A stretch of 52,716 nucleotides of DNA, taken from Escherichia phage BEK12A. Location of the stretch: sequence record MN158210.1; one strand, given 5' to 3'. The notes under the pieces are model-generated. The model made no database searches. It was not told where the DNA came from and worked only from the letters and a program-made list of their open reading frames with translations. This document shows positions 6,832-44,187 of the stretch, piece after piece. Every line of letters starts with the position of its first letter. Position 1 is the stretch's first letter. The position numbers and the translations under genes are program-made.

Positions 6832-7266
6832 ATGAGTGATTATTCAGTCATTGTTGGCGCTGAGTCGCCAGGGTGCATGGTCGATTCTTCAATAATGGTG
6901 ATTAACGGATCTTTCGTGTGCGGAGATGAATTTATTGCGCCAGGTAAGATTGTGCGACTATCACATATAATAAATGGATACAAAATAGCAAGTGTTAATG
7001 GGGATCTTGTTATTGGCGTGGCAGTAAGGCCGCCGGACTCGTGCATATATGAGGAGGGTGATCCCGTTAATGTGGTTAGTAGAGGTAGTGTGTGGTGCTT
7101 AACTTCTGAGAGCGAAGCGCCAGAATATGGAGATAAAGTATTTGTAACGCAAGATGGAGATGCTGCATACAGTGAAGGCGACTTGCTGAGCGGTTGGATC
7201 TTTACTGGCGAACATGTAAAGGTTGATCATGATTCATATATTGTCGGGGTAAGCATTAGCGCATAA
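6832..7266 (+). CDS. structural protein, paralog of 6274..6786
   Basis: 144 aa; shared motif with the preceding ORF. Confidence 0.4.
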   Translation: MSDYSVIVGAESPGCMVDSSIMVINGSFVCGDEFIAPGKIVRLSHIINGYKIASVNGDLVIGVAVRPPDSCIYEEGDPVNVVSRGSVWCLTSESEAPEYGDKVFVTQDGDAAYSEGDLLSGWIFTGEHVKVDHDSYIVGVSISA

Positions 7267-7284
7267 CACAAAATTATGTTGCAC

Positions 7285-7303
7285 GTTTAACAAAAAATGC
7301 TAT
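7285..7303 (-). promoter_or_regulatory. conserved 20-bp box, reverse orientation, abutting capsid gene leader
   Basis: GTTTAACAAAAAATGCTAT on the plus strand equals the box on the minus strand. Confidence 0.5.
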
Positions 7304-11006: not shown

Positions 11007-11046
11007 CATTCCTGTAAAATCAATCTATCAAATAAATCAATTACAC

Positions 11047-11064
11047 TTTTAACAAAAAGTGCTA
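11047..11064 (-). promoter_or_regulatory. conserved 20-bp box, reverse orientation, directly before chaperone RBS
   Basis: TTTTAACAAAAAGTGCTA followed by CAAGGAG and ATG. Confidence 0.5.
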
Positions 11065-17348: not shown

Positions 17349-20300
17349 ATGGCTGAAAATATGATAACTGGCAGTAAGGGCGGAAGCAAAAAGCCATACG
17401 TGCCAAAAGAGATGGAAGATAACCTGATCTCGATAAACAAGATTAAAGTTTTGCTGGCTGTATCTGATGGCGAATGCGATCCAGATTTCACGTTGCGTGA
17501 TCTTTATCTTGATGATGTTCCGGTTATTGCCAGCGATGGCACTGTTAACTATGAGGGGGTAACGGCTGAATATAGACCAGGTACACAGACGCAAGATTAC
17601 ATCCAGGGGTTTACTGACACATCAAGCGAGGTGACAGTTTCGCGAGATATTACAGCAGACAATCCCTATATTATCTCTGTAACAAATAAAAATCTTTCTG
17701 CAATCAGAATCAAGATTCTGATGCCAGTTGGCATAAAACAGGAGGATAACGGCGATCTTGTTGGTGTAAGGGTTCAATATGCCGTAGATATGGCTGTTGA
17801 TGGCGGTTCTTATAACGAGGTTATGAGAGATGTAATTGATGGCAAGACAAGATCAGGATATGACCGCAGCAGAAGGATTGATCTTCCTAAGTTTGATGAG
17901 CGCGTTTTAATCAGGGTCAAGCGACTGACTCCAGACAGCACATCTTCAAAGGTGACTGATAAAATCAAACTGCAAAGTTACGCTGAGGTTGTGGATGCAA
18001 AATTCCGTTATCCTCTGACTGGCCTTGTATTCGTAGAATTTGACAGCGAATTGTTTCCTACGCAAATCCCTAACATTTCTATAAAAAAGAAATGGAAGAT
18101 TATTAATGTGCCAAGCAACTATGATCCAATATCTAGAGAATATCACGGGTCATGGGATGGGACTTTTAAAAAAGCGTGGTCAAATAATCCTGCTTGGGTT
18201 CTTTATGATCTGGTAACTAATCAGCGTTATGGACTTGACCAGCGAGAGTTAGGAATACAGATCGACAAGTGGAGCTTATACGAGGCTGGTGTTTACTGTG
18301 ATCAGAAAGTTCCAGACGGTAAGGGCGGTACAGAGCCTCGCTACCTATGCGATGTGGTGATCCAGAATCAGGTTGAGGCTTATCAGCTAATCCGTGACAT
18401 TTGCTCAATCTTTCGCGGAATGAGCTTTTGGAATGGAGAGAGCTTATCAATCGTAATTGATAAACCGCGCGATCCATCATACGTGTTTACTAATGAAAAC
18501 GTCATCAACGGTGATTTTCAGTACACAGCAGCAAGCGAAAAAAGCATGTACACGCAATGTAATGTGACGTTTGACGACGAACAAAACATGTATCAGCAGG
18601 ACGTAGAGGGGGTTTTTGATACTGAGGCGGCATTACGATTTGGATACAATCCAACAAGCATTACAGCGATCGGGTGTACACGCAGGAGCGAAGCGAATCG
18701 TCGCGGTCGGTGGGTTTTGAAAACAAACCTTAGAAGCACTACTGTAAACTTTGCTACCGGACTAGAGGGGATGATTCCATCCATAGGTGATGTGATTGCT
18801 ATCGCTGATAATTTTCAGAGCAGCAATCTAACGCTAAATCTTTCGGGCCGAGTAATGGAAGTTTCAGGCTTGCAAGTTTTCGTTCCGTTTAAGGTTGATG
18901 CGCGTCCTGGTGATTTTATTATCATCAACAAGCCGGACGGAAAGCCAGTTAAGCGAACGATCTCAAAGGTGAGCGCAGACGGAAAAACCATTGAGTTAAA
19001 TATTGGCTTTGGTTTTGATGTTAAGCCTGATACTGTTTTTGCGATTGACCGTACTGACCTTGCGTTGCAGCAATACGTTGTGACAACTATCAGCAAGGGT
19101 GATGACGAAAACGAGTTTACCTATTCAATCACGGCTGTAGAGTACGATCCGAACAAATACGACGAGATTGATTATGGAGTAAACATTGATGACAGGCCAA
19201 CTTCAATTGTTCAGCCTGACGTGATGGCAGCGCCTGAGAACGTGCAGATCTCTTCTTATTCTCGCGTCGTGCAGGGTGTAAGCGTTGAAACTATGGTTGT
19301 GTCGTGGGAAAAAGTGCCTTATGCATCGCTCTATGAAATGCAGTGGCGTAAAGGTGATGGAAACTGGCTGAATACACCACAGACCGCAAACAAAGAAATT
19401 GAGGTTGAAGGTATTTATTCAGGTAACTACCAAGTAAGGGTGAGATCTGTTTCTGCTTCCGGTTCTACGTCGCCGTGGTCAAAGATTGCAACCGCCACCC
19501 TGACAGGTAAAGTTGGCGAGCCAGGAGCGCCGATTAATCTTACAGCTTCTGATAATGAAGTTTTTGGCATTCGTGTCAAATGGGGTATGCCGGAAGGATC
19601 GGGCGATACGGCTTACATTGAGCTTCACCAATCGCCAGATGGGACGGTGGAAAACTCAAGTTTGCTTACGCTGATCCCGTATCCTCAATATGAGTATTGG
19701 CATAGCACGTTACCAGCGGGTCAAGTTGTATGGTATAGAATCCGTAGCGTTGACAGGATCGGCAACGTTTCCGGCTGGACTGACTTTGTTCGCGGCATGG
19801 CGTCAGATGATGTTGAATCTGTTTTAGGCGACATTCTGGACAAGATTTTTGATACCGAAGCGGGTCAAGAAATCAAAGAGAACGCCATAGACAGTGCAAA
19901 CAAAATCAAAGACCAGGCGCAATCAATCATCCAGAACGCATTGGCAAACGATGCCGATGTGAAGTGGACGCGAGTACAAAACGGAAAGCGTAAGGCTGAA
20001 TATGGTCATGCACTGGAGCTTATTGCTAACGAAACGGAGGCGCGAGTAACTCAAATCGAAGAGTTAAAGGCGTCAATTGATGAAGATATAGTTTCAAGTA
20101 TCAAAACCGTTCAGGAAGCGATTGCCAATGAATCAGAGACGCGAGCTACTCAAGTTCAGCAGCTTGATTCTAAATTTACGAAGGAAATAGACGGCGTAAA
20201 ACGAGATACGGCTGCAAGCATTGGCGAGGTAAGGCAAACCATTACCAATGAATCAGAAGCGCGTGCTCAAGCCGTTCAGCAGCTTGACGCTAAGTTCACG

Positions 20301-20927
20301 AAAGAGATAAACGACCTTGACGGAGTTATCAAAACAGAAGTCGAGGCTAACATCTCAGAAGTGAAACAGGCGATCGCCAATGAGACAGAGGCAAGGGTTC
20401 AGGCTGACCAGGCTTTAACAGCTAAATTCGGAGATGTTGAATCAGCACTAGCCGAAAAACTTGATTCGTGGGCTAACGTTAATTCTGTTGGCGCTAAGTA
20501 CTCTATGAAATTGGGCCTTACTTACAATGGTCAGAAGTACAGCGCAGGAATGATCATGCAGTTGTCGCAATCTTCTCAAGGCTTGATCTCGCAAATCTTG
20601 TTTGATGCTAACAGGTTCGCGATCATGACTAGCTCTACTGGCGGAACGTTTACTTTGCCTTTCGTTGTTGAAAACAACCAGGTTTTCATTAACAGCCTGC
20701 TAGTTAAAAACGGTTCAATTACAAATGCCATGATCGGTAATTATATTCAGTCGAATAACTTTGTTGCCAATCAGCAGGGTTGGAGGCTGGATAAAAACGG
20801 CAGATTTGAGAACTACGGAACTAGAGCGGGAGAAGGAGCTACAAAATTCACTAACGAAGGCTTAAAGGTGAAAGATGCAAATGGACGATTGAGAGTTGAG
20901 ATAGGGAGAATAACCGGAAGTTGGTAA
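17349..20927 (+). CDS. tail tip / central tail fiber protein (lambda gpJ-like host specificity protein)
   Basis: 1192 aa; follows M-L-K-I block; C-terminal coiled-coil repeats (NESEARA..VQQLD.KFTKEI repeated). Confidence 0.8.
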   Translation: MAENMITGSKGGSKKPYVPKEMEDNLISINKIKVLLAVSDGECDPDFTLRDLYLDDVPVIASDGTVNYEGVTAEYRPGTQTQDYIQGFTDTSSEVTVSRDITADNPYIISVTNKNLSAIRIKILMPVGIKQEDNGDLVGVRVQYAVDMAVDGGSYNEVMRDVIDGKTRSGYDRSRRIDLPKFDERVLIRVKRLTPDSTSSKVTDKIKLQSYAEVVDAKFRYPLTGLVFVEFDSELFPTQIPNISIKKKWKIINVPSNYDPISREYHGSWDGTFKKAWSNNPAWVLYDLVTNQRYGLDQRELGIQIDKWSLYEAGVYCDQKVPDGKGGTEPRYLCDVVIQNQVEAYQLIRDICSIFRGMSFWNGESLSIVIDKPRDPSYVFTNENVINGDFQYTAASEKSMYTQCNVTFDDEQNMYQQDVEGVFDTEAALRFGYNPTSITAIGCTRRSEANRRGRWVLKTNLRSTTVNFATGLEGMIPSIGDVIAIADNFQSSNLTLNLSGRVMEVSGLQVFVPFKVDARPGDFIIINKPDGKPVKRTISKVSADGKTIELNIGFGFDVKPDTVFAIDRTDLALQQYVVTTISKGDDENEFTYSITAVEYDPNKYDEIDYGVNIDDRPTSIVQPDVMAAPENVQISSYSRVVQGVSVETMVVSWEKVPYASLYEMQWRKGDGNWLNTPQTANKEIEVEGIYSGNYQVRVRSVSASGSTSPWSKIATATLTGKVGEPGAPINLTASDNEVFGIRVKWGMPEGSGDTAYIELHQSPDGTVENSSLLTLIPYPQYEYWHSTLPAGQVVWYRIRSVDRIGNVSGWTDFVRGMASDDVESVLGDILDKIFDTEAGQEIKENAIDSANKIKDQAQSIIQNALANDADVKWTRVQNGKRKAEYGHALELIANETEARVTQIEELKASIDEDIVSSIKTVQEAIANESETRATQVQQLDSKFTKEIDGVKRDTAASIGEVRQTITNESEARAQAVQQLDAKFTKEINDLDGVIKTEVEANISEVKQAIANETEARVQADQALTAKFGDVESALAEKLDSWANVNSVGAKYSMKLGLTYNGQKYSAGMIMQLSQSSQGLISQILFDANRFAIMTSSTGGTFTLPFVVENNQVFINSLLVKNGSITNAMIGNYIQSNNFVANQQGWRLDKNGRFENYGTRAGEGATKFTNEGLKVKDANGRLRVEIGRITGSW

Positions 20928-21571: not shown

Positions 21572-21850
21572 TTACCCCCAAAAAGTATATATATATCTTG
21601 AGTCAGATCCAGAAAGTCCGCTCCATGTAACAGTATCACCGCTTACACCTAAACTTGGAGCGCCTGGATCGCCTCCTCGCCACGAATTCATTCCAACATA
21701 TATTGCTTTCAAAGACTTACCTGGAGGCCTGTTTGAGTAGGTCTTACTGCCGGATGATTGAGTAAATTTATCCAAGAAAAAAACTGGAGTTAAAAGGCCA
21801 GTAACATTTCTACCTTGCTCATCATATATTGCATACCCATATTCAGCCAT
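21572..21850 (-). CDS. hypothetical Gly/Ser-rich protein
   Basis: 92 aa, RBS GAGGTG; 3' end contains (TA)5 tract; coupled to lipoprotein gene stop. Confidence 0.4.
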   Translation of the reverse strand: MAEYGYAIYDEQGRNVTGLLTPVFFLDKFTQSSGSKTYSNRPPGKSLKAIYVGMNSWRGGDPGAPSLGVSGDTVTWSGLSGSDSRYIYTFWG

Positions 21851-22118
21851 TTTTGCACCTCAAATCAATGAATTTTCTTTCATCTTGCCAACGGTTGATA
21901 AATTTAACTTCTTTATTGTCAACGCTCAACCTGTATTGCTTTTGGCTGAATCTGTTTTCGCGGACCGCATTAATTTTAACTTCATGGAATCCGTTAACAG
22001 GGAATGTTTTAACGTTAAATTTTGCCGTGCAATCGATCTCCTTGAAGTTGCCAGTAGGCGAAGAAGAACATCCGGTCAGGGCGGCTACGGTGGCGATAAC
22101 TGCGATTAATTTTTTCAT
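21843..22118 (-). CDS. lipoprotein, candidate superinfection-exclusion (Cor/Llp-like) protein
   Basis: MKKLIAVIATVAALTGCSSS signal peptide with lipobox; RBS AAGGAG; first gene of leftward operon next to tail tip gene. Confidence 0.5.
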   Translation of the reverse strand: MKKLIAVIATVAALTGCSSSPTGNFKEIDCTAKFNVKTFPVNGFHEVKINAVRENRFSQKQYRLSVDNKEVKFINRWQDERKFIDLRCKNG

Positions 22119-22173
22119 CTTCAATACTCCTTAGTTGTTGTTGGCTGTAACTATACACGATCCGGCAAGCCGA

Positions 22174-22192
22174 GTTTAGCAAAAAGTGCTAT
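22174..22192 (-). promoter_or_regulatory. conserved 20-bp box upstream of leftward lipoprotein operon (variant GCTAAAC)
   Basis: minus strand reads ATAGCACTTTTTGCTAAAC, then 18 bp, then TATAGT. Confidence 0.5.
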
Positions 22193-22254
22193 TTGTTATT
22201 TTTTGTTTTCCGGTGTTATCGGATTTAAGACGGCGTAAATTTAGCGCAAATCTT

Positions 22255-22460
22255 AGCCAACATAAGAACAATAAATAATCAATAAAATAGATATATACAT
22301 ATAAAATCAATAGTTTATTTATTTATGTATGTATATTTGTTTTTTCTTGTTATCTGTGTTTCTTGTGGTTTTGGTTGTTTGTGGTGATTTTTCTTTCTGA
22401 GTATCTGTATGTGCCATCATTCATGTGTATGTATATAATCCGGCGTATCTGAGAGAACAA
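22255..22460. repeat. AT-rich noncoding repeat region A (homologous to 43890-44030)
   Basis: TATTTATTTATGTATGTATATTTG..TTGTTATCTGTG..TTGTGG..TTTGG..GTATCTGTATGTG shared with region B. Confidence 0.6.
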
Positions 22461-22561
22461 GGGAACAAGAAAAATAACACATATTAATCATTAACTTACT
22501 CGTCAAATTTGTTTTATTGCCATCTGAGAACGTTTAGAAAACAGAAAAAACAAAACAACTA

Positions 22562-22589
22562 TTGACTAAATCAACCAAATGGCTACAAT
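22562..22589 (+). promoter_or_regulatory. sigma-70 promoter (TTGACT-16-TACAAT) for recombination operon
   Basis: near-consensus hexamers about 30 nt upstream of the 22620 start. Confidence 0.6.
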
Positions 22590-22619
22590 GCACACACAAA
22601 GCAACGAGGAGCATTAAAG

Positions 22620-23675
22620 ATGAGTGATTTTAACGCCTATACTAGCGAAGAAATGAGTAACGAGCTTTATCACGATCCAGAAGCGTGGACGGCTGAATAT
22701 GTCAGCGGTTCCAGCCTGGCGGAGATTTACAGCACTTGCCCGGCGTACTGGAAGTACAAGCCTCGCCAGGAAACTAAGGCACTTGTTTTCGGTACGCAGT
22801 CGCATACCAATTTTGAAAGCAAGGAGTTATTCGAAAAAACATATCGCCGCGCACCGTCGCAGGATGATTTTAAAGATCTGATCACAAGTCAAACGGCGTT
22901 AGCCTCAAAGCTGAAATCTTTTGGCCTGAAAGGTACAACGGGTAAGCAATATCCAGAATTGCTGGAAATGCTGTACAAGTGCGGTGAGGATCTCAATGTA
23001 TGGTGGCTTATCGAAATGATGGCAGAATGCCAGGCCGCAGCGGACGGCGTGCAGTTAATCGACGCGAAAGATTATGATGCCTGTGTAGCGATGCGGCGCG
23101 TACTTGAGGCAATACCTGAGCATAATGCTTGCATGAATAGCCCAACCGCGCAGCGTGAAATGTCAATATTCGGGATCATCAATGGCGTAAAAGTTAAAGT
23201 GCGTCTTGATCACGTTGACGTAAACAAGGATGTAAAGGCCACAATCATTAACGGTTACGACGAAAAAGGCCGACCGATTTATGAAGAAGTCATCTATCCA
23301 GAAGCTGTGATTATCACTGACTATAAAACAACGGTTAGCGCAAATCCGGTTGACTTCCAGCGCCTGGCTTACAATCACGGCTATTATCTCAAAATGGCTT
23401 TGCAGCATGATTTATTTAAAAAGGCTTATCCAGACGAGGAAAGGCCAGTAATTGTGAGATTGCTTGCTCAAGAGAAGAAAGAGCCTTACTTGCCGCTCGC
23501 ATTCCGCATGAACATTGAGCAATTGAAGATTGGGCGTATCCAGTACATGAGCGTGATCAATAAGTTCAATGTTTGCCAGAAGTTAGATGAATGGCCTTCG
23601 TATGCAAACGGGCAGCCAGAAATTGATCTTGATACTCCTGATTGGGTCCGCGCCCAATTCAGGCAGTATCTATGA
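22620..23675 (+). CDS. PD-(D/E)XK family exonuclease (recombination exonuclease)
   Basis: RLDHVD ... VIITDYKT motif arrangement typical of RecB/lambda-Exo-like nucleases; followed by annealing protein and SSB. Confidence 0.55.
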   Translation: MSDFNAYTSEEMSNELYHDPEAWTAEYVSGSSLAEIYSTCPAYWKYKPRQETKALVFGTQSHTNFESKELFEKTYRRAPSQDDFKDLITSQTALASKLKSFGLKGTTGKQYPELLEMLYKCGEDLNVWWLIEMMAECQAAADGVQLIDAKDYDACVAMRRVLEAIPEHNACMNSPTAQREMSIFGIINGVKVKVRLDHVDVNKDVKATIINGYDEKGRPIYEEVIYPEAVIITDYKTTVSANPVDFQRLAYNHGYYLKMALQHDLFKKAYPDEERPVIVRLLAQEKKEPYLPLAFRMNIEQLKIGRIQYMSVINKFNVCQKLDEWPSYANGQPEIDLDTPDWVRAQFRQYL

Positions 23676-28424: not shown

Positions 28425-28901
28425 TTAGCTATTCGTGCTGTTATCACCTTTGTAGAATCGTCCGCCTGGTTCGTAGTCTGAATTTTTGACTACGCGCAAC
28501 ATTTCGTATTTGTCGCAACGGGTAGTAAGAGGCTTGCCGTTAGAATCAAACCGCAGATCTGGACGACAAAACGAGGCGCGGTATCCTTTGCATCCATTAT
28601 ATTTGTAGTCGTTATGCACCTTTTGTGCTCCAGCGGCTGAAATCATACCACGCTTTCGCCATTGGTTAACAACTTGCTGAGATACGCGCAGACGTCGAGC
28701 CATAGCAGGAACGCCGCCGTAATACTCGATCAGAATGTCAAGGCGAGATTTCAGGCTTGCTTTTACCTCATCTCGCAGGATAAGAAATCCGGTTCGGTGT
28801 TTTCGTGGCTTTTTGTCTTTACCTCGTCGCGTTCCGTTGTTACCGTTAATAGTGCGCTTGTCGATCTCACCCGTAGACACTGCAATTCGTGCATCTTTCA
28901 T
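28425..28901 (-). CDS. HTH DNA-binding protein (Cro/YdaS-like helix-turn-helix)
   Basis: YGGVPAMARRLRVSQQVVNQWRKRG motif; RBS GAGGTG; first gene of leftward operon. Confidence 0.5.
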   Translation of the reverse strand: MKDARIAVSTGEIDKRTINGNNGTRRGKDKKPRKHRTGFLILRDEVKASLKSRLDILIEYYGGVPAMARRLRVSQQVVNQWRKRGMISAAGAQKVHNDYKYNGCKGYRASFCRPDLRFDSNGKPLTTRCDKYEMLRVVKNSDYEPGGRFYKGDNSTNS

Positions 28902-30986: not shown

Positions 30987-31405
30987 TGGCTATAACTGAT
31001 AAAGGCGATTATCTTGAGTTTTACGAAAGGGATCCAACCGACACGAGAAGGGAAGTTAATCACCAGATAGATAGTTTTCAGTGGTTGACTTATGCTCATC
31101 CTTATTTGCTGGCGTGGCATACGGTAAACGAGAATGAGAAGTCTAAAGCAACGGCGATGATTGATCAGCAGTCCGGCTTGGTTAAGGGAGTAAGCGATTT
31201 CATCATCCTGATTGGTTTAAACGGAAAATACCCCTTTGCAGCGATTGAGATCAAACGAGTGAATAAATCAGGCAAGGGGAAAGCATCACCAGTCAGCGAT
31301 GAACAAAAGGCTTTTTTGCGTCGCGTTCGCAGCTTAGGAGGATTCGCTGCGGTAGCCTACGGATTCAATCAGTTTAAGTTGGCTATTGAATACATGCTTA
31401 AATAG
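30986..31405 (+). CDS. VRR-NUC domain nuclease
   Basis: GVSDFIILIG...AAIEIKR arrangement (D..E.K) typical of VRR-NUC. Confidence 0.6.
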   Translation: MAITDKGDYLEFYERDPTDTRREVNHQIDSFQWLTYAHPYLLAWHTVNENEKSKATAMIDQQSGLVKGVSDFIILIGLNGKYPFAAIEIKRVNKSGKGKASPVSDEQKAFLRRVRSLGGFAAVAYGFNQFKLAIEYMLK

Positions 31406-31446
31406 CACTTTTTGTTAAAACTGGCGCGATGGATTGCGCCATAATA
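31402..31446 (+). promoter_or_regulatory. conserved box - hairpin - ATAATA module
   Basis: ATAGCACTTTTTGTTAAAAC, hairpin GGCGCGATGGATTGCGCC, ATAATA; stop TAG of upstream gene inside box. Confidence 0.6.
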
Positions 31447-31474
31447 CAGAAAAACAAAACACGGGGTTACTAAA

Positions 31475-31909
31475 ATGAAACTTAAATCATCTTTACTTAT
31501 CGCAGCTTTGGCATTAACAGGTTGTGGATTTAAAAAGACAGTGCACACTGATTTTAATATCAACTCTTGCACAAACTTAACAATGAATGTTGTGATGCAT
31601 TCAGCATCAAAGGCATACCATGATTCATGGTATAACAAAAACAGAGACACGATCAAATATATCGCTTACAGTGAGTGCAAGTCATCAATCGAAAACAATT
31701 TAATAGAAAACATCGGCACGAAATATAATTTTGTACGCGAAAAGGAAAAGTACATCACCCCATCAAAGCCTAGTGATATTGATATTTCAAATGTTCTTTC
31801 GGAAGTTCCAGAGATAATAACCTATGCTCACGCTGTAGGTTCAAAGCTCGCAACTACATCAAAGGTTGAGACTATCGAGATCTCAAAGAAGGCAAACGAA
31901 GTTTTTTAA
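31475..31909 (+). CDS. lipoprotein of unknown function
   Basis: MKLKSSLLIAALALTGCGF signal peptide with lipobox. Confidence 0.55.
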   Translation: MKLKSSLLIAALALTGCGFKKTVHTDFNINSCTNLTMNVVMHSASKAYHDSWYNKNRDTIKYIAYSECKSSIENNLIENIGTKYNFVREKEKYITPSKPSDIDISNVLSEVPEIITYAHAVGSKLATTSKVETIEISKKANEVF

Positions 31910-32655: not shown

Positions 32656-32913
32656 ATGAAAAAAGAGAGAAGCGTTTATTTAAATGAAACTGGCGAATGG
32701 TTGTTATTTCGCGCTATGGTGTGCGATGCACTTGATAAAAATCCTAACGTGAAAAAGATGATTGATTGCGATCCGTGGGAATTTTCAAGCGCATTAGATA
32801 TGAGCTTTGAGGAGACAAGAAAACTCCCGCTTGAAAAATGGCACGAACAAATCAGAAATGACATGCAAGAGTTTGTCGATTCGTGGAATTTTCAGCACGG
32901 AATGATCCACTAA
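32656..32913 (+). CDS. hypothetical protein
   Basis: 85 aa ORF ending in TAA that abuts the conserved box. Confidence 0.45.
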   Translation: MKKERSVYLNETGEWLLFRAMVCDALDKNPNVKKMIDCDPWEFSSALDMSFEETRKLPLEKWHEQIRNDMQEFVDSWNFQHGMIH

Positions 32914-32957
32914 TAGCACTTTTTGTTAAAACGCCCGGCCTAGTGTCGGGCATAATT
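32914..32957 (+). promoter_or_regulatory. conserved box - hairpin - CATAAT module
   Basis: ATAGCACTTTTTGTTAAAAC, CGCCCGGCCTAGTGTCGGGC, ATAATT; inverted twin at 36135-36173. Confidence 0.6.
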
Positions 32958-32988
32958 ATTTCAACGAAGCAAACATGAGGAAATAAAA

Positions 32989-33168
32989 ATGGTGGTATTC
33001 GATAAACGCGCTTTTAATCTTGCTCAAGAAGTAGCAAAAGGTTCAGTGGATGGCGGTTCAAAGGAAGGATTCCAGTTTGATTGGGAGATCGCAATGTTTT
33101 TACTGAAAGTTGCATACGGTCACGCACCAATTGAACAAGCGGAGGCATATTATAAGCATGAAGGTTGA
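32989..33168 (+). CDS. small hypothetical protein (59 aa, not in ORF track)
   Basis: ATG preceded by GAGGAAAT; stop overlaps next start (ATGA). Confidence 0.3.
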   Translation: MVVFDKRAFNLAQEVAKGSVDGGSKEGFQFDWEIAMFLLKVAYGHAPIEQAEAYYKHEG

Positions 33169-33400
33169 GCAAGGAAGAGATGCGGTATGGAATCACGCTA
33201 AAGAATGCGGTATTGCCGACGATATAAAGAAGATCGCGCAATACTTTGATATTGCAGATGTGAGCATAATTAGCGGCGACAAGATGACTTTCCTCAAGGA
33301 AAGGCCGCGAAAAATGGTAAGAGTTCCAGCAGTTCCAACAAAAATTGATTTCAAAGAGGCAATGGCTAAAATCCGAGAGCCTCGCAAATATTATAAATGA
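33158..33400 (+). CDS. hypothetical protein
   Basis: ATG at codon 17 of the 33110 ORF; about 80 aa. Confidence 0.4.
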   Translation: MKVEQGRDAVWNHAKECGIADDIKKIAQYFDIADVSIISGDKMTFLKERPRKMVRVPAVPTKIDFKEAMAKIREPRKYYK

Positions 33401-33494
33401 GGATAGTTATCATGTGGCGCTTGTTTGTTCTACCGTTACCCGTTATCATCGCTGTTACAGTTATGTACCATATAGTAATGAGATAGGTAGCAGA

Positions 33495-34610
33495 ATGAAA
33501 AATGTAAAAATTACAGATGAGCAATTCAAGATCGAACGGGCGGCAGGTAAGACATATAAACAGATCGCTCAAGAGTACGGAATGAATGTGAGAAGCGTCG
33601 AGCGTCGCGCGGCGCGTCTTGCAAAGCAAGGACAGTTATCGACCATTGGAGCGCCTGGTTTTGGTGTTCATGGTGAGTCAGTAATGACCGACAAAGAAGG
33701 CAACATAATCCTCAAGTGGACCAAAACCAGCAAGGACAAAGAGCAATTAGAAGCATTGATGCGCGCAGCAATGGAGGCGTTTAGCGAGGAAGTGCCGCGA
33801 TTAGATCCAGTTCCATTGCAGGAGCGTGACTATAATGAAACGCTTTCATTGTATCCGATCTTTGACATGCACTTAGGCGCTATGGCCCATAAGCACGAAT
33901 GCGGCGAAAATTGGGATACTGCGACGGCGGAGCGCGTTATGAATAACTTTATCGACTATGCTTTGATGTGCGCACCTGACAGTGAAAAGGCTGTTATCCT
34001 GATTGGTGGCGACATGCTTCATAGCGATGGCCTGGAGGCTGTGACCCCTGCAAGCGGTCACGTACTTGATCAAGATAGCCGATATGCAAAATTGGTTTAC
34101 GTTGCAATACGTGCAATGCGCCGCGCAATTAATAAAATGCTGTTAAAGCATAAACATGTTGAGGTCCAGATCGTTGAGGGCAATCACGACCAATCAGGAA
34201 TGATTTGGCTACGCGCAGCAATGGCGGCAGCATATGAGAACGAGCCGCGCGTTTACGTTGATGTTTCTCCTCGCGTTGTTCACCACACGCAATACGGAAA
34301 AACTTTCCTTGCGTACCATCACGGGCACACAGTGCGCAAACCTGAGACTTTGCTAATGATGTGCGCGTCAGATTGGCGGGAGGACTTCGGAAACTCAAAA
34401 ACGATGTATGCGCACGTAGGGCACTGGCATCACCAGACCGTGACGGAAACGTCGCTTGGGATCGTGGAGGTACATAGCACCCTGGCGGCAAAAGACGCAT
34501 ACGCCGCGCGCGGTGGCTGGAGATCTCGACGCCGTGCAGCGGTTATCATTTACGACAAAGAGCATGGAGAAGTTGGGCGATTTGTTCACTATCCAGAAAT
34601 GATGAATTGA
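33495..34610 (+). CDS. metallophosphoesterase with N-terminal HTH-like domain
   Basis: calcineurin-like motifs DMHLG, GGDMLH, GNHD, HHGH, GHWHH; N-terminal YKQIAQEYGMNVRSVERR helix-turn-helix-like. Confidence 0.6.
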   Translation: MKNVKITDEQFKIERAAGKTYKQIAQEYGMNVRSVERRAARLAKQGQLSTIGAPGFGVHGESVMTDKEGNIILKWTKTSKDKEQLEALMRAAMEAFSEEVPRLDPVPLQERDYNETLSLYPIFDMHLGAMAHKHECGENWDTATAERVMNNFIDYALMCAPDSEKAVILIGGDMLHSDGLEAVTPASGHVLDQDSRYAKLVYVAIRAMRRAINKMLLKHKHVEVQIVEGNHDQSGMIWLRAAMAAAYENEPRVYVDVSPRVVHHTQYGKTFLAYHHGHTVRKPETLLMMCASDWREDFGNSKTMYAHVGHWHHQTVTETSLGIVEVHSTLAAKDAYAARGGWRSRRRAAVIIYDKEHGEVGRFVHYPEMMN

Positions 34611-36093: not shown

Positions 36094-36129
36094 AATTTTA
36101 CCTTTTGGTTGTTTCGTTTCGATGAAACA

Positions 36130-36173
36130 AATATACCCGACACTAGGCCGGGCGTTTTAACAAAAAATGCTAT
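36130..36173 (-). promoter_or_regulatory. conserved box - hairpin - TATATT module (leftward)
   Basis: minus strand ATAGCATTTTTTGTTAAAAC, GCCCGGCCTAGTGTCGGG, TATATT, then CATCGAAACGAA box. Confidence 0.6.
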
Positions 36174-36364
36174 TCCATACGCTTTACCGTAACCAGTAAT
36201 ACACCATCATCATTGCATAAAACATGTTCAGTGGTGCTAAAAGCGCGCATATCTGAATAAAGTAGCGTAAGTAAAGCATGAATAAAATCCTCATGTGATA
36301 TTGAATTTACGGCGCAGTGCTTCAAGATCTTGTCTATTAGCTTTTGCCTGGAACAATTCATCAT
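36170..36364 (-). CDS. hypothetical small protein (start uncertain)
   Basis: stop TAG lies inside the conserved box like other early genes; 5' end overlaps upstream gene; possible RBS GGGGAGA. Confidence 0.3.
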   Translation of the reverse strand: MMNCSRQKLIDKILKHCAVNSISHEDFIHALLTLLYSDMRAFSTTEHVLCNDDGVLLVTVKRME

Positions 36365-36686
36365 CGCCCATCTCCCCTATTCTCGCCATATCCCTGATCC
36401 AGTCGTTGCGCATACCATCCAGGCTATACAATTCGAATCCGAAAGGCCGCTTTGATGATCCTTTGGACCAGTATTTTCCGCAGACCCCATCTATATAACC
36501 AGCCGTCATCATTCTTGCGCAAAATTCCTTAGATGCAAGGCTGGCGAACATTCGCGGCGTAAGTCCGGCGGCCCGCGCGAGCCGCTCGCATTCTCTATGC
36601 TGATAGATAAATTTGGCTATGTGCTGCCTGTTAAACCAGTCGTATGACTCACACCATTTATACAGATCAAGCAAAAACATAATCAT
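36291..36686 (-). CDS. hypothetical protein
   Basis: 131 aa, start overlaps stop of ATPase gene. Confidence 0.45.
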   Translation of the reverse strand: MIMFLLDLYKWCESYDWFNRQHIAKFIYQHRECERLARAAGLTPRMFASLASKEFCARMMTAGYIDGVCGKYWSKGSSKRPFGFELYSLDGMRNDWIRDMARIGEMGDDELFQAKANRQDLEALRRKFNIT

Positions 36687-38263
36687 CCCAGCAGTATTGG
36701 ATTGACAAAAATAACACCATTAATCACGCAAACATAATTTCTTTCTTCCAGCATTGGCAGCAAGTGCCCCTCTATCCTCTTCATTACGCCAGCCTGACCA
36801 ACGAAAGGTTTTACCTTTCTCGCTGATTCGTACAGGGCGCGAATATTCAGGATCCCTTTGTTAGCCTTGCCGTGCCTCGTGATCAATTCAATCAATTTAC
36901 CCATTTCAGCATCATCACCAGCATAACCAGAAGCATTGGCGGCGCTAATGTATGTTTTGCTCAATTCATGAAACATGATCAGCGCCTCTTGCATTGTTTC
37001 AACGTCGATCTCTTTCGACTTCTGCGGGTATCCAGCAGGATTAAACCAGTTGCGGATAACATGCAGGACGGAAGCAAGCCTGATCACCTGTTTATCCATT
37101 TTACCCAGCGCACCGCGTAACATTGTATGAGAATACTTTCCGCCGTCTGCAAGATGCGGTTCCATATCCTGGCGAGCAATGTTGAGCACTCGCATAGCTG
37201 AACGGCTTATTTTCAGCGATATATTTGATTCGCTCATGATGTTATGCACCAATTGATAATATTGGGCCTTCAATTCAGGATCCACCGCCTCATAGGTAGA
37301 ATCACCATTTTCATCAATGAATGAGCGACGGCCTAAGAATGATTCCTCACGGACCAACAAAAAGCGCTCACTCACACCGATACCGCGCGATCCAGCGTCC
37401 ATGATTCCGCTTATCGTTTCATCCTGGGCTATAACGCTCATACATCCAAGCGCGCGAAAACTCATGTTATTGTCAGCATTAGCACGGGCGATTGATACGT
37501 GACCATTATCCCACGCCTTAAGCACTAGCTCGCTGTTAGTCTTCCTTTCGCTATTGGCATATGTCAAGCCTAACAGGCTGTTAATACTTGTTGCTTCGTC
37601 AGATATTACGGCAAAGTTACCTTGCTTGTTGTTGATTTTCGCCAAGCCTTCTGGAGTTGTATCTGAAACAGGGAAAGTTATATCACACATTTTTTCCAGC
37701 TTCTCCTCCAGATCCTCTTTTTCCTGGTATAGAGATTCCATATCAGCGCCTGATCTTTCGCTTTTCATCTCCTTTGCAAGACCTGCCAACTTTGCCTGTA
37801 TTTTCTTTCTTTCCTTGCGGCGTTGCTCGTTGATCTTCTCAACTTCCGCAATCATCGGAGCAATAGCCATGCTGTTGATCGCAGATTTACCAGTTGACGG
37901 CGGCTGGCTTGTAACGACGTAAAGCGCAGTCGGCTGATCGGTCCCGTGATAGTCAACCGTAAAGCGTCCAAGCATGGCGGCAGAAATGCAGCCGATAAAG
38001 TGCATGTAAGCCGATGATTCAGGGAATTGAATGGATCGCGCAATACTGCGTGATAACTTTCCGACAACATCAATATCATTACCAAGAGAAATGACGGGGT
38101 AGCGATCGTGACCGCTATTTACATCCTTTACGTCGCCCCAAAAGCTGGACGACTGGCGATAGCCGTTAGCCTGAATTGATACGCGAACTGGTGAAAGGTT
38201 CTGGCTTTCAGCCATAGCGATTATTTGCTGTGGAGTTAATTTGTTCGTTTCTAATGAAAACAT
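36683..38263 (-). CDS. P-loop NTPase of unknown function
   Basis: Walker A-like QPPSTGKS and Walker B-like AVISDEAT separated by a charged coiled-coil segment; RBS AAAGGAG. Confidence 0.5.
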   Translation of the reverse strand: MFSLETNKLTPQQIIAMAESQNLSPVRVSIQANGYRQSSSFWGDVKDVNSGHDRYPVISLGNDIDVVGKLSRSIARSIQFPESSAYMHFIGCISAAMLGRFTVDYHGTDQPTALYVVTSQPPSTGKSAINSMAIAPMIAEVEKINEQRRKERKKIQAKLAGLAKEMKSERSGADMESLYQEKEDLEEKLEKMCDITFPVSDTTPEGLAKINNKQGNFAVISDEATSINSLLGLTYANSERKTNSELVLKAWDNGHVSIARANADNNMSFRALGCMSVIAQDETISGIMDAGSRGIGVSERFLLVREESFLGRRSFIDENGDSTYEAVDPELKAQYYQLVHNIMSESNISLKISRSAMRVLNIARQDMEPHLADGGKYSHTMLRGALGKMDKQVIRLASVLHVIRNWFNPAGYPQKSKEIDVETMQEALIMFHELSKTYISAANASGYAGDDAEMGKLIELITRHGKANKGILNIRALYESARKVKPFVGQAGVMKRIEGHLLPMLEERNYVCVINGVIFVNPILLG

Positions 38264-38335: not shown

Positions 38336-38553
38336 TTGATCCGCTCTATTGCAACCAGAAGTCGATCAGGCTGGCGGTCGCTGTAGCATTCTCCTGTAAT
38401 CCCATCCTTAAACGTAAAGTAAAGCGCCTTATGATATGAAAAACCAATCAGCCAACCTACCGACGTTTTTTTGATGGGCCTGACTATATCGCCAGGCTTG
38501 AAGGTTTTTGTTGCTGAATTAGTAACCTTATAGCGATATTCAGTCTTGATCAT
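38332..38553 (-). CDS. hypothetical protein
   Basis: ATG at codon 40 of the 38670 ORF, overlapping HNH stop; about 73 aa; stop TAG in box. Confidence 0.4.
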   Translation of the reverse strand: MIKTEYRYKVTNSATKTFKPGDIVRPIKKTSVGWLIGFSYHKALYFTFKDGITGECYSDRQPDRLLVAIERIK

Positions 38554-39061
38554 AAGGCTTCTCGCTTCCGTGGTTTTCGTGGAATCCGTACTTTTTCCAA
38601 ATAGCATCTCTTGATGATACAGCGCTATCAATTGATGCATGATAACCACCAGAAATACACCTGCCATCAACAGTTACTTGTACGCACCATTTAGACACCC
38701 TCTTATTCCACATCACGCCAGTATAACCAGATTTATTTGTCGATCTCCTTGTGTGGTTTTGTGAGTTTTGTTTTCTTGTGACAAGCCGGAGGTTTTCGAT
38801 TCTATTGTCATCTCTTATGTGATTCACGTGATCTATCTCCATTCCTTTTGGTATTGTTTTTCCATGCATCCACCAAACAATCCAATGCGCCGGATACTCT
38901 CTGCCACCAATACCTATACGTCTATATCCGTTTTTAGTTATATAACCTGCCTCATCGCCAATTTTTGCCCGTCTTCCTGATGGGCTTTTCCATAATAGAC
39001 GACCATTTTCATATATAAATAAATTTAGAAGTACTTGCCTTGAAATTCCGCTATTGCACAT
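38540..39061 (-). CDS. HNH homing endonuclease
   Basis: HWIVWWMHG...EIDHVNHIRDDNRIENLRLVTRKQNSQN. Confidence 0.8.
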   Translation of the reverse strand: MCNSGISRQVLLNLFIYENGRLLWKSPSGRRAKIGDEAGYITKNGYRRIGIGGREYPAHWIVWWMHGKTIPKGMEIDHVNHIRDDNRIENLRLVTRKQNSQNHTRRSTNKSGYTGVMWNKRVSKWCVQVTVDGRCISGGYHASIDSAVSSRDAIWKKYGFHENHGSEKPYDQD

Positions 39062-39327: not shown

Positions 39328-40010
39328 TTTGAGTTTGACTCAAAGACGGCGCGAGCAAATCCGCGCGGAGTGAGGGAGCGTAGTTGCTTTGTTCTGGCAG
39401 ACTTACCGCCTAAAAACTTCCAACCCCAAAAGAACATTACGCCCTCATCATTGGATAACGGCTTGCGTTCCGGTTCTGTAAATCCGTTGCCGCACCAGAT
39501 AGCAGTCCTTTTTGTGTAGCCATCCTTTAGCGGCATCTTGGGGTGAAAAGATCCATCGGATTCGTCCAGGTAGTTACCAAAATCGCGAGGATTGAAATAA
39601 AAATCAGGCTTGCGCCATAGCGTTGATAGTCGGCCTACAGGATTCTCAGCCATCCAGGGAACACCGAAATGATTCCCGACAGTTTCAACCATGATTGCAT
39701 TTTTGAGCGCAACCTGAATATCATCATCGCTTCGCACGTGCTTGATTCCTGATTGGGCAAACATGGTGCAGTCTGGAAATCCAAATACAATATCTGGTTT
39801 TGGAATACCAATCTTACTGATTCTTTCAATGAAATTTTCATCAATCCACATATTCACATAATGCAGATTTTCATGTTTCATCTTGATGAAATATTCGCCG
39901 TGATTGCCTTCATCAGCGTTAAAGCAATAGCATTGATAGCCAGCCTTCGCATATTCAAGCAGCATGATTCCAGATCCATCAAACATTGAGTAAGCAACTT
40001 TATTTCCCAT
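39324..40010 (-). CDS. putative DNA methyltransferase-like protein (divergent C5-cytosine MTase-like motifs)
   Basis: FDGSG (motif I-like), GFPDCTMFAQSG (PC-motif-like with an insertion), ENPVG (ENV-like); divergent, so assignment is tentative. Confidence 0.35.
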   Translation of the reverse strand: MGNKVAYSMFDGSGIMLLEYAKAGYQCYCFNADEGNHGEYFIKMKHENLHYVNMWIDENFIERISKIGIPKPDIVFGFPDCTMFAQSGIKHVRSDDDIQVALKNAIMVETVGNHFGVPWMAENPVGRLSTLWRKPDFYFNPRDFGNYLDESDGSFHPKMPLKDGYTKRTAIWCGNGFTEPERKPLSNDEGVMFFWGWKFLGGKSARTKQLRSLTPRGFARAVFESNSK

Positions 40011-43269: not shown

Positions 43270-43541
43270 TACTTCTTGATCTCCTCACTGATAAATTTCA
43301 GCACCTGACGTAAGAAAACCTCGTTGTTGATAGTCGCTGGCAATTCTTCTTTCACTTCTTGCGGCAGATAGATATTGCCGTGCCAGGTCAAGCAATCGTA
43401 GTTGATGCGATAAGAGCAAAGCCACTCGCAATCGTTATCTGCTTCCCAAATGCAGAGTTGCAGAACATCGCCAAAATCCTCAACAGTCAGATCCAGACCG
43501 TGACGCTTAGCGAAGTTGAAAGTGGTTTTGCTGATGTTCAT
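43269..43541 (-). CDS. hypothetical protein (first gene of leftward early operon)
   Basis: 90 aa; RBS CAGGAGA. Confidence 0.5.
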   Translation of the reverse strand: MNISKTTFNFAKRHGLDLTVEDFGDVLQLCIWEADNDCEWLCSYRINYDCLTWHGNIYLPQEVKEELPATINNEVFLRQVLKFISEEIKK

Positions 43542-43575
43542 TGCTATCTCCTGAGCGGTTCGTTTCGATGTGTGT

Positions 43576-43619
43576 AATGTACCCGATCAGGTGGTCTGAG
43601 TTTTAACAAAAAGTGCTAT
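43576..43619 (-). promoter_or_regulatory. conserved box - TACATT - CATCGAAACGAA module heading the leftward early operon
   Basis: minus strand ATAGCACTTTTTGTTAAAAC, then 18 bp, then TACATT; no gene upstream, so it acts as operon leader. Confidence 0.6.
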
Positions 43620-43644
43620 TTGACGGTTAGCGCCAGGATTGTGA

Positions 43645-43745
43645 TCGAAATAATCAAAAGTAATCATTCGTAATCAAATCACGTCAAAATGATGATTGCC
43701 TTTGCAAATTTTATGAGAAAAGTAATCACGTTTAATCATTGGTTG
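43645..43745. repeat. phased TAATCA direct repeats (iteron-like)
   Basis: TAATCA at about 43651, 43661, 43671 (10-bp phasing) and again near 43723 and 43734. Confidence 0.5.
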
Positions 43746-43889
43746 CAGGGGAGATAGTGAAACCTTCCCCTCTTGCCTCACTTTTTTGCCTGGCTGTCAG
43801 TGGTTGTTATGTTCCGTTCCCTCCTGTTCTTTTGTTGACCTTCCGCAAAATACGATAACAAAAAATAACAAACAATACCTATATAATAC

Positions 43890-44030
43890 ATTGAAAAATA
43901 AGGATTATTTATTTATATGTATCTATATATTCTCTTTTGTTATCTTGGTTATTGTGGTATTTGGTGGGGGTATATAGTTTTTGTGTATCTGTATGTGTGT
44001 ATGGGTATGTAGGGGCATATATATCTATAT
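43890..44030. repeat. AT-rich noncoding repeat region B (homologous to 22255-22460)
   Basis: TATTTATTTATATGTATCTATAT..TTTTGTTATCTTGG..TTGTGG..TTTGGTG..GTATCTGTATGTG. Confidence 0.6.
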
Positions 44031-44158
44031 GGCGCTTTCCGCGAGAAAACTTCGATAACAGGCAATGATAACATTGATTTATAAGGAAAAATAACTCCTA
44101 TATTGTTATTGTGCCACCATATAAAATTGATAAAACACGCAGGAACAAGAAAAAACAG

Positions 44159-44187
44159 TTGACACATTAAATAGCATTATTGATAAT
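44159..44187 (+). promoter_or_regulatory. consensus sigma-70 promoter (TTGACA-17-GATAAT) for rightward early operon
   Basis: perfect -35, 17-bp spacer, good -10, about 30 nt upstream of 44216 start. Confidence 0.7.

What the first reader, a model, noticed from the sequence alone, without database searches (positions are those of the whole stretch)
22130..22620. Long AT-rich noncoding region A with internal repeats feeding a sigma-70 promoter; homologous to region B
About 490 bp without a credible ORF separates the leftward lipoprotein operon from the rightward recombination operon. It contains TG/TA-rich oligo-repeats (ATGTATGTATAT, TTGTGGTTTTGGTTGTTTGTGGTG, GTATCTGTATGTG) and ends in TTGACT-16-TACAAT. 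A block of about 110 bp is clearly homologous to 43890-44030. Such repeat-rich, gene-free regions at divergent early promoters are candidates for replication origin, host-factor (IHF/Fis) binding, or packaging signals.
Basis: seen in the sequence. Interest (0 to 1): 0.6.

Follow-up and report, generated by a model that had tools for sequence, protein, structure and literature searches.

The report
Paired origin-like AT-rich modules, T1-like phage
The gene-free stretch is one of two sister copies of a conserved DNA element (short phased repeats around the most easily melted DNA of the genome, set between two outward-pointing promoters) found in all T1-like phages examined, and it is the best available candidate for the still-unmapped replication origin of this classic phage family.

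Summary
The window is the whole genome of Escherichia phage BEK26, a T1-like phage (Drexlerviridae). About 500 bp (22119-22619) carry no conserved ORF. The listed oligo-repeats exist, TTGACT-16-TACAAT is conserved, and region B is the only other homologous place in the genome. The homology covers nearly the whole intergenic region, not just 110 bp.

- The A and B cores are the two least stable duplex segments of the genome. The same holds at the same two gene positions in phages Rtp and T1.
- Heptamers TGTTNTN, often 10 bp apart, occur 10 and 9 times against 1.5 and 1.0 expected. They point right on the left side and left on the right side.
- T1 uses other words, found almost only in its two modules.
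- A and B within one genome resemble each other more than their counterparts in other subfamilies do.
- The core is more conserved than third codon positions next door.
- I found no RNA family, no conserved internal promoter and no DnaA box.
- The packaging-end region maps to a B-only insert.

Best reading (about 45%): a replication-origin-type element, bound by a phage protein and present twice. This is inferred, not shown.

The parts
21843..22118 (-). Flank: Cor-like superinfection-exclusion lipoprotein gene, first gene of the leftward unit.
   Evidence: ORF. Matches phrog_1119 (Cor), E = 6e-8. Lipobox LTGC is present. AAGGAG (reverse complement of 22127-22132) lies 8 nt before ATG 22118 (read).
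22150..22195 (-). Leftward promoter of the family-wide '21-nt repeat' type. The repeat AAATAGCACTTTTTGCTAAAC has a palindromic core, TAGCA-N5-TGCTA, at about 22174-22195. TAAACT-17-TATAGT follows, with the -10 at 22150-22155.
   Evidence: 16 strict copies in the genome, each about 18-19 nt upstream of a TAYAWT-like hexamer. Conserved in 12 of 12 A regions. The repeat is described for phage TLS with function unknown (PMC11447400).
22194..22220 (+). Left heptamer array: TGTTATT, TGTTTTC and TGTTATC at 22194, 22204 and 22214, exactly 10 bp apart.
   Evidence: The columns are conserved in the 12-sequence alignment. Hanrivervirus has TGTTCT/TGTTCTC/TGTTCTC at the same places.
22236..22244 (.). Invariant small palindromic box TAAATTTAG within a GC-richer spacer.
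   Evidence: Invariant in 12 of 12 A regions.
22261..22367 (.). AT-rich core, the candidate DNA-unwinding element. It is the least stable duplex segment of the whole genome (22262-22362, 84% A+T). In this genus it is also a 107-bp imperfect palindrome.
   Evidence: Nearest-neighbour stability scan: rank 1 at window sizes 50, 100, 200 and 350 bp, z = 4.0-4.8. Self reverse-complement match of 73% over 109 nt, E = 6.5e-9. DNA hairpin z-score only -1.7.
22305..22317 (+). IHF core consensus AATCAATAGTTTA at the centre of the palindrome.
   Evidence: One of 4 matches in the genome, a chance-level count. AAATCAAT is invariant in 12 of 12 A regions. Absent from B.
22338..22354 (+). Heptamer pair TGTTTTT and TGTTATC, 10 bp apart. 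TTGTTATCT is invariant.
22355..22437 (+). T/G-rich tract with almost no A on the plus strand. It contains alternating purine-pyrimidine runs, including GTATCTGTATGTG (shared with B) and a second TGTATGTATAT.
   Evidence: 76% identity to Hanrivervirus, the best-conserved sub-block of the core.
22438..22445 (.). Conserved GC box ATCCGGCG closing the AT/TG-rich part.
   Evidence: Conserved in 12 of 12 A regions, with one C-to-A variant. B has GGCGC/CCGCG here. Rtp has TCCGCGGAA only in its two modules.
22453..22479 (-). Right heptamer array in the opposite orientation: GAGAACA, GGGAACA and AATAACA at 22453, 22463 and 22473, 10 bp apart.
   Evidence: GAACAAGRGAAC is invariant in 12 of 12 A regions.
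22532..22561 (+). A-rich block AGAAAACAGAAAAAACAAAACAAC directly upstream of the -35 hexamer. It looks like an UP element.
   Evidence: Conserved in A and B of both genera. Its function is inferred from position only.
22562..22589 (+). Rightward sigma-70 promoter TTGACT-16-TACAAT for the exonuclease VIII / Erf / SSB unit.
   Evidence: Conserved in 12 of 12. The TLS paper lists a promoter P51 before the exonuclease gene.
22606..22622 (+). Ribosome-binding site GAGGAG and the ATG (22620) of the exonuclease VIII gene.
43784..44158 (+). Sister copy: the B core. It has the same layout, with its AT-rich minimum at 43847-43947, which is the second least stable segment of the genome.
43622..43783 (+). 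B-only insert, absent from A. It carries TAATCA-type repeats and a conserved GGGGA...TCCCC hairpin. It is the probable packaging-start (pac) region.
   Evidence: The T1 and Rtp GenBank records open inside the equivalent insert, and T1 annotates a repeat_region at 1-2800. PMC7718038 places the end of phage SU57 in this untranslated region. The pac assignment is inferred.
44159..44187 (+). Rightward sigma-70 promoter of B, TTGACA-17-GATAAT.

Best explanation
Region A is one of two sister copies (A and B) of a cis-acting DNA element built like a replication origin. Arrays of short heptamers, spaced one helical turn apart, lie on both sides in opposite orientation. Between them is the most easily melted DNA of the genome.

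Proposed mechanism (inferred):
1. A phage-encoded sequence-specific protein binds the heptamer arrays.
2. Transcription moving outwards from the two flanking promoters leaves negative supercoils in the untranscribed core.
3. The AT-rich core melts.
4. The phage helicase (DUF3987, MCM-like fold) and the zinc-ribbon primase are loaded, and host DNA polymerase III extends the primers.
5. The exonuclease/Erf/SSB genes just downstream of A then support recombination-driven formation of concatemers.

Shown here: the anatomy, its statistical support, its conservation and its duplication across three subfamilies. Inferred: protein binding, melting, and that replication starts here.
For: 1. Duplex stability. 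The A core (22262-22362) and B core (43847-43947) rank first and second as least stable duplex in 52.7 kb at every window size tried, z = 3.9-4.8.

2. The same two gene positions behave alike in other subfamilies. In Rtp they rank first and second. In T1 they are the only places with at least 31 of 34 A/T.

3. Heptamers. TGTT[ACT]T[CTG] occurs 10 times (A) and 9 times (B), against 1.5 and 1.0 expected from dinucleotide shuffles of the cores themselves (P < 0.001). Spacings of 10 bp recur: 22194/22204/22214, 22338/22348, 22453/22463/22473 and 43854/43864. Copies on the left mostly point right, and copies on the right point left.

4. T1 has its own words, almost exclusive to its two modules. All 7 genome copies of GTGTWACA lie there, four of them flanking the AT core of the A counterpart. 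Five of the 6 copies of TGTTAATC lie in the B counterpart. Rtp has TCCGCGGAA only in its modules.

5. Co-evolution of the two copies. A-B similarity within a genome is 59 bits (BEK26), 50 (T1) and 128 (Rtp). Comparisons across subfamilies reach at most 39 bits.

6. Purifying selection. The A core is 70% identical between BEK26 and Hanrivervirus. Third codon positions of the adjacent exonuclease gene are only 53-55% identical.

7. The core is probably untranscribed. Only the two outward-pointing flanking promoters are positionally conserved in 12 A regions.

8. The phage encodes the needed machinery but no DNA polymerase gene is annotated: a zinc-ribbon primase, and a DUF3987 helicase whose model (pLDDT 88) most resembles MCM helicases and ends in a winged-helix-like H-E-H-H-E-E unit.

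9. The origin of T1-like phages is reported as not found (PMC11447400; PMC7718038).
Against: - There are no replication data of any kind: no marker frequency, no origin-test plasmid, no binding assay.
- The heptamer is short and degenerate, and its exact word differs between subfamilies.
- No candidate initiator gene is adjacent. The primase lies about 5 kb from A and the helicase about 5.3 kb from B.
- Iteron arrays in inverted orientation are not the commonest layout for phage origins.
- The same anatomy (protein sites, bendable AT-rich DNA, divergent promoters) also fits a transcription-control region.
- Why a lytic phage would keep two such elements is unexplained.
- The large palindrome seen in BEK26 is not present in T1 or Rtp.
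Confidence: 0.45

Rival explanations
1. The core is a transcription-control region for the two early/middle promoters that flank it. A phage regulator (or IHF/Fis) binds the heptamers and the AT-rich DNA to switch the divergent promoters on or off during infection. It has no role in replication.
For: - Both copies always sit between a consensus sigma-70 promoter and a 21-nt-repeat promoter, in one fixed orientation.
- An A-rich, UP-like block abuts the -35 hexamer.
- An IHF consensus lies at the centre of A.
- The phage encodes a Cro/YdaS-like helix-turn-helix protein, phrog_2856 'transcriptional regulator'.
Against: - The core is 365 bp long, far more than promoters normally use.
- The distance from the AT core to the rightward promoter is not conserved: about 230-330 bp in BEK26 against about 50-100 bp in Rtp A.
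- The other roughly 14 promoters of the 21-nt-repeat type work without such a core.
- The more obvious operator for the helix-turn-helix protein is the palindromic 21-nt repeat itself.
- Being the least stable duplex of the genome in three subfamilies is not needed for regulation.
Confidence: 0.25
2. The element is a packaging or recombination signal: a second pac-like site, or a preferred site for end formation or strand invasion that seeds recombination-dependent replication.
For: - B lies about 200 bp from the position where the T1 and Rtp GenBank records open.
- A lies directly upstream of the exonuclease/Erf/SSB genes.
- Two GenBank records (BEK26 and BEC3) open inside region A.
Against: - The record starts of T1 and Rtp fall in the insert that only B has. 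A lacks it entirely.
- The record starts of BEK26 and BEC3 may simply be assembly breaks in AT-rich DNA.
Confidence: 0.07
3. The region encodes a small RNA or a small protein.
For: - Some GenBank records annotate 'hypothetical proteins' here.
- One minus-strand ORF of 40-44 codons recurs at a similar place.
Against: - No Rfam match at gathering thresholds, and nothing credible at E <= 1.
- RNA folding z-scores are only -1.9, -1.2 and -1.1.
- No conserved promoter lies inside the core.
- ORFs differ in frame, start and end between relatives, and indels are not multiples of three.
Confidence: 0.05
4. It is merely an AT-rich spacer kept open by the needs of the two promoters, with no sequence-specific role. 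The repeats are a by-product of biased composition.
For: - Composition is strongly biased, so short T/G-rich words recur easily.
- Predicted intrinsic curvature is unremarkable: z = 3.0, with more than 12 higher sites in the genome.
Against: - The heptamer excess survives dinucleotide shuffling of the cores themselves.
- In T1 the words are exclusive to the two modules.
- The core is 70% conserved where third codon positions are 53-55%.
- The two copies resemble each other more than their counterparts across subfamilies.
Confidence: 0.08

Closest known systems
Bacillus phage SPP1 oriL / oriR (from my own knowledge, not checked in the paper library)
   Same: A lytic, pac-type headful-packaging siphovirus with two related origin regions far apart in the genome. 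Each has short binding sites for a phage initiator next to an AT-rich stretch.
   Different: In SPP1 the initiator (G38P) and its binding to both regions are shown by experiment, and oriL lies inside the initiator gene. Here no binder is known, both copies are intergenic between divergent promoters, and there is no sequence similarity.
Satellite phage P4 ori plus crr (from my own knowledge; the library search gave nothing usable)
   Same: Two separate cis regions carry the same short repeat (remembered as TGTTCACC), which is bound by the replication protein. T1's primase is annotated as similar to P4-type alpha primases. The word resembles TGTTCTC/TGTTATC.
   Different: P4 alpha joins primase, helicase and a C-terminal DNA-binding domain in one protein. 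T1-like phages split primase and helicase, and the helicase is DUF3987/MCM-like. No sequence match to any solved chain, P4 alpha included, was found. The resemblance between the words is only a lead.
Origins of staphylococcal pathogenicity islands (SaPI ori), herpes simplex oriS and the SV40 core origin (from my own knowledge)
   Same: Sets of short initiator/helicase binding sites flank an AT-rich segment that melts first. The sets can be in inverted orientation.
   Different: Those systems are unrelated, and binding and melting are demonstrated for them. None occurs as two co-evolving copies in one genome.
Lambda ori and E. coli oriC 'transcriptional activation' (from my own knowledge)
   Same: Nearby transcription helps origin opening. 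Here two promoters fire away from the core, which by the twin-supercoil-domain idea would leave the core underwound.
   Different: Lambda ori has four direct iterons inside gene O. oriC uses DnaA boxes. Neither module here has a DnaA box.
The 21-nt intergenic repeat of TLS/T1 (PMC11447400)
   Same: The left border of region A is one copy of this known repeat (aaATAGCACnnnTTGnTAAAA), in the direction of the leftward gene.
   Different: The repeat is a promoter-associated element present about 16-21 times per genome. The AT-rich core with its heptamers is a different element, present only twice, and is not described in that paper. That paper states that no iteron-like repeats were found.

Membership tests
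Iteron-plus-unwinding-element replication origin (phage or plasmid type) | A discrete AT-rich segment of unusually low duplex stability | tested here: met
   A and B rank first and second in the genome, z = 3.9-4.8. The same two gene positions stand out in Rtp and T1.
Iteron-plus-unwinding-element replication origin (phage or plasmid type) | Several copies of a short repeat next to the AT-rich segment, in helical phase, more frequent than composition predicts | tested here: met
   10 and 9 copies against 1.5 and 1.0 expected. Spacings of 10 bp recur. In T1 the words are almost exclusive to the modules.
Iteron-plus-unwinding-element replication origin (phage or plasmid type) | A cognate initiator protein binds the repeats | not testable with these tools
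   Candidates only: the MCM-like DUF3987 helicase with a winged-helix-like C-terminal unit, the helix-turn-helix protein, and small early proteins.
Iteron-plus-unwinding-element replication origin (phage or plasmid type) | Replication starts there, or the segment supports replication in trans | not testable with these tools
   No sequencing-depth or plasmid data are available. The papers found say the origin is unknown.
Iteron-plus-unwinding-element replication origin (phage or plasmid type) | The origin lies in or next to the initiator/replication genes (common, not universal) | tested here: inconclusive
   A adjoins the exonuclease/Erf/SSB genes and lies about 5 kb from the primase. B lies about 5.3 kb from the DUF3987 helicase.
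DnaA-dependent origin | DnaA boxes TTWTNCACA | tested here: not met
   5 in the genome (6.0 expected), none in A or B.
Sigma-70 promoter (right edge of the finding) | -35 and -10 hexamers at 16-18 bp spacing, conserved in relatives, upstream of a gene | tested here: met
   TTGACT-16-TACAAT matches 10 of 12 consensus positions. Conserved in 12 of 12. Activity was not measured.
pac (headful packaging start) site | Coincides with the mapped end of the first packaged genome | tested here: not met
   For A: the record starts of T1 and Rtp map to the B-only insert, which A lacks. For BEK26 itself the ends are unmapped.
Structured non-coding RNA | Match to a known family, or folding and covariation above background, with its own promoter | tested here: not met
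   No Rfam match. Folding z-scores from -1.1 to -1.9. No conserved internal promoter.
IHF binding site | WATCAANNNNTTR with an AT-rich 5' flank | tested here: inconclusive
   One perfect match at 22305-22317, conserved in A regions. The genome-wide count is at chance, and B has none.
Cruciform-forming palindrome | A long inverted repeat conserved across relatives | tested here: not met
   Present in BEK26 A and B but absent in T1 and Rtp, where z is 0.3 to 1.5.

The most novel reading that the evidence does not exclude
T1-like phages use a two-site replication system. Two co-evolving origin modules are recognised directly by the phage's MCM-like helicase, through its C-terminal winged-helix unit, without any separate initiator or DnaA. 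Divergent transcription opens the core. This would be a bacterial-virus counterpart of initiator-helicases such as SV40 large T antigen, and of the P4 ori/crr pair.
Probability: 0.12. Interest if true: 0.75.

Novelty: new member of a known kind. Interest (0 to 1): 0.55.

Why it matters
T1 is one of the seven original T phages and a notorious laboratory contaminant, yet the papers I could read state that the replication origin of T1-like phages has not been found.

This analysis narrows the search to two elements of about 370 bp. Both are defined to the base and conserved across three subfamilies. Clear, cheap tests are available: sequencing depth during infection, origin-test plasmids and binding assays.

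If confirmed, the result would:
- give phage engineers the cis element needed to build T1-based replicons;
- explain why these two intergenic regions resist change;
- show how a phage that encodes an MCM-like helicase but has no annotated DNA polymerase gene starts replication.

If the element turns out to be a transcription switch instead, it is still the main unannotated control region of the family.

Tried and rejected
- Structured RNA: no Rfam match at gathering or E <= 1 thresholds. Folding is not clearly better than shuffles.
- tRNA or tmRNA: none.
- Small protein: ORFs are not conserved.
- Internal promoters: none is positionally conserved. The GTGCCA-17-TATAAT site at 22411-22439 is specific to BEK26.
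- DnaA boxes: none.
- Cruciform: the palindrome is limited to Tempevirinae.
- Intrinsic curvature: peaks of z about 3, but more than 12 stronger sites exist elsewhere. The wedge parameters were recalled from memory, so this result is weak either way.
- GC skew: it follows gene orientation and says nothing about an origin.
- Related DNA in E. coli genomes or plasmids (satellites, prophages): no match.
- Literature on T1 replication origins, T1-like transcriptomes, and the T1 and Rtp genome papers: nothing held or nothing relevant.
- Solved structures related to the DUF3987 helicase by sequence: none.
- A technical limit: only some fetched loci reached the scripting machine. The T1 genome was therefore analysed with pattern searches rather than the stability script.
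Full report
**Identity of the window.** The window is the complete 52,716-bp genome of Escherichia phage BEK26 (MN158216.1; Drexlerviridae, Tempevirinae, Warwickvirus), a T1-like virulent siphovirus. It is rotated so that window = record + 22177 and position 1 is the start of the small terminase gene. Region A lies between a Cor-like lipoprotein gene read leftwards (21843-22118; phrog_1119) and the exonuclease VIII / Erf / SSB genes read rightwards (ATG 22620). Region B (43541-44216) lies between two long runs of small early genes that diverge from it.

**Check of the observation.**
- The gap is about 500 bp. Its short ORFs change frame, start and end among six relatives.
- A search of A against the whole genome finds B as the only other homologous place: 22267-22413 versus 43857-43997, 70% identity, E = 4e-11.
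- A full alignment shows that homology runs from the leftward ribosome-binding site to the rightward one.
- B carries an extra insert of about 160 nt (43622-43783) that A lacks.

**Anatomy of A, from left to right.**
1. A leftward promoter of the family-wide '21-nt repeat' type (about 22150-22195).
2. Three heptamers TGTTNTY exactly 10 bp apart (22194, 22204, 22214).
3. An invariant TAAATTTAG box (22236-22244).
4. An 84% A+T core (22261-22367). In this genus it is also a 107-bp imperfect palindrome with an IHF core consensus at its centre (22305-22317).
5. A heptamer pair (22338, 22348).
6. A T/G-rich tract with alternating purine-pyrimidine runs (to 22437).
7. A GC box ATCCGGCG (22438-22445).
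8. Three heptamers in the opposite orientation, 10 bp apart (22453, 22463, 22473).
9. An A-rich block that looks like an UP element.
10. The promoter TTGACT-16-TACAAT (22562-22589).

B repeats this order. In 12 A-type regions from two genera, only the two outward-pointing flanking promoters are positionally conserved promoter-like sites. The core is therefore most likely an untranscribed spacer between divergent promoters.

**Is it more than chance?**
- With nearest-neighbour energies, the A and B cores are the first and second least stable duplex segments of the genome at windows of 50, 100, 200 and 350 bp (z = 3.9-4.8).
- The heptamer TGTT[ACT]T[CTG] occurs 10 and 9 times in the two cores. 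Dinucleotide shuffles of those same cores give 1.5 and 1.0 (P < 0.001).
- Thirteen of the 53 genome copies of the stricter TGTT[AC]T[CT] lie in the 2.2% of the genome made up by A plus B.

**Conservation across the family.**
- The A/B pair exists in Hanrivervirus, in T1 (Tunavirinae) and in Rtp (Braunvirinae), at the same two gene positions.
- In Rtp the two modules are again the two least stable segments.
- In T1 they are the only two places with at least 31 of 34 A/T.
- T1 has its own words. All seven genome copies of GTGTWACA lie in the two modules, four of them bracketing the AT core of the A counterpart. Five of six copies of TGTTAATC lie in the B counterpart.
- Rtp has TCCGCGGAA only in its modules.
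- Within each genome A and B are more alike (59, 50 and 128 bits) than any cross-subfamily pair (at most 39 bits). The two copies therefore evolve together, as expected if both must fit the same partner.
- Between BEK26 and Hanrivervirus the A core is 70% identical, while third codon positions in the neighbouring exonuclease gene are 53-55% identical. This indicates purifying selection along the whole core.

**What it is not.**
- No RNA family, tRNA or convincing RNA fold.
- No conserved ORF.
- No DnaA box.
- The palindrome is not family-wide.
- Predicted curvature is not exceptional.
- Nothing similar occurs in E. coli genomes or plasmids.
- A packaging role for A is unlikely. The T1 record opens inside the T1 counterpart of the B-only insert and annotates a repeat_region at 1-2800. 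The Rtp record opens at the homologous spot. A lacks that insert. PMC7718038 likewise places the end of phage SU57 in this untranslated region.

**Most likely function.** The layout is that of an initiator-dependent replication origin: phased short repeats on both sides of the weakest duplex of the genome, held between promoters that fire outwards.
- The repeat words differ between phages that share one host, which points to a phage-encoded binder.
- The phage has a zinc-ribbon primase and a DUF3987 helicase.
- An AlphaFold model of the helicase (pLDDT 88) ends in a winged-helix-like unit. Its 48 best matches among solved structures are all MCM subunits, with modest scores (E from 6e-5, TM about 0.33).
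- No DNA polymerase gene is annotated.
- The papers I could read say the origin of T1-like phages has not been found, and that no iteron-like repeats were seen in TLS.

I therefore rate 'replication-origin-type element, present twice' at about 0.45. Binding, melting and initiation are all inferred. The main rival, at 0.25, is a transcription-control region for the flanking promoters. Against it stand the size of the core, the unconserved distance to the promoter (about 230-330 bp in BEK26, about 50-100 bp in Rtp A), and the many promoters of the same type that lack such a core.

**Comparison with known systems** (from my own knowledge unless a call is cited). The nearest parallels are:
- SPP1 oriL/oriR: two related origins in a pac-type lytic phage.
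- P4 ori plus crr: two cis regions sharing one short repeat. T1's primase is annotated as P4-alpha-like.
- SaPI, herpes simplex oriS and SV40 origins: binding sites flanking an AT-rich stretch.

Membership in the general class is met for the two features that can be read from sequence. It cannot be tested for the two functional features.

**Verdict.** It matters mainly because it turns an old open question about T1 into a direct experiment.

Noticed in passing
16 strict copies, e.g. 22176-22192(-), 27351(+), 31402(+), 43603-43619(-), 44946(+), 50590(+): The known 21-nt intergenic repeat of T1-like phages (PMC11447400, function unknown) has a palindromic core, TAGCA-N5-TG(C/T)TA. It sits at a fixed distance, with its centre about 41 bp upstream of the likely start and 18-19 nt before a TAYAWT hexamer. 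That is the classic position of an activator overlapping the -35 region. The Cro/YdaS-like helix-turn-helix protein (window 28425-28901, minus strand; phrog_2856) is a candidate binder.
   Followed up: partly
43622-43783: An insert found only in region B. It has TAATCA-type repeats and a conserved GGGGA...TCCCC hairpin. The T1 and Rtp GenBank records open inside its counterpart, so this is probably the packaging-start (pac) region.
   Followed up: partly
36683-38263 (-): The DUF3987 'DNA helicase' gives a confident model (pLDDT 88). Its 48 best matches among solved structures are all MCM2-7 or archaeal MCM subunits (E from 6e-5, TM about 0.33). It ends in a winged-helix-like H-E-H-H-E-E unit (residues about 450-525). 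No sequence match to any solved chain.
   Followed up: partly
22178 and 22330: The GenBank record of BEK26 starts at window 22178, and that of the near-identical phage BEC3 at about 22330. Both lie inside region A. This may be an assembly break in AT-rich DNA, or something about the ends.
   Followed up: no
32912-32973 and 36113-36174: A 62-nt inverted repeat, 89% complementary. Two nearly identical units of 21-nt repeat plus GC hairpin plus -10 hexamer face each other across the lysis genes.
   Followed up: no
528-1019 and 2550-3032 (record 31067-31558, 33089-33571); also 38540-39061, 40000-40527: Four annotated homing (HNH) endonuclease genes. One is wedged between the small and large terminase genes and one lies right after the large terminase gene. 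A 44-nt inverted match (2734-2777 / 38813-38856) links two of them.
   Followed up: no
7264-7302 and 11026-11064: Two copies of the 21-nt repeat lie in the late (structural) region in the orientation opposite to the surrounding genes. One sits directly before a ribosome-binding site. This does not fit the simple rule that the repeat points with transcription.
   Followed up: no
20116-20328: Two 93-nt direct repeats (72% identity, 120 bp apart) inside the 1192-codon tail-tip (J-like) gene. They encode repeated coiled-coil-like segments.
   Followed up: no
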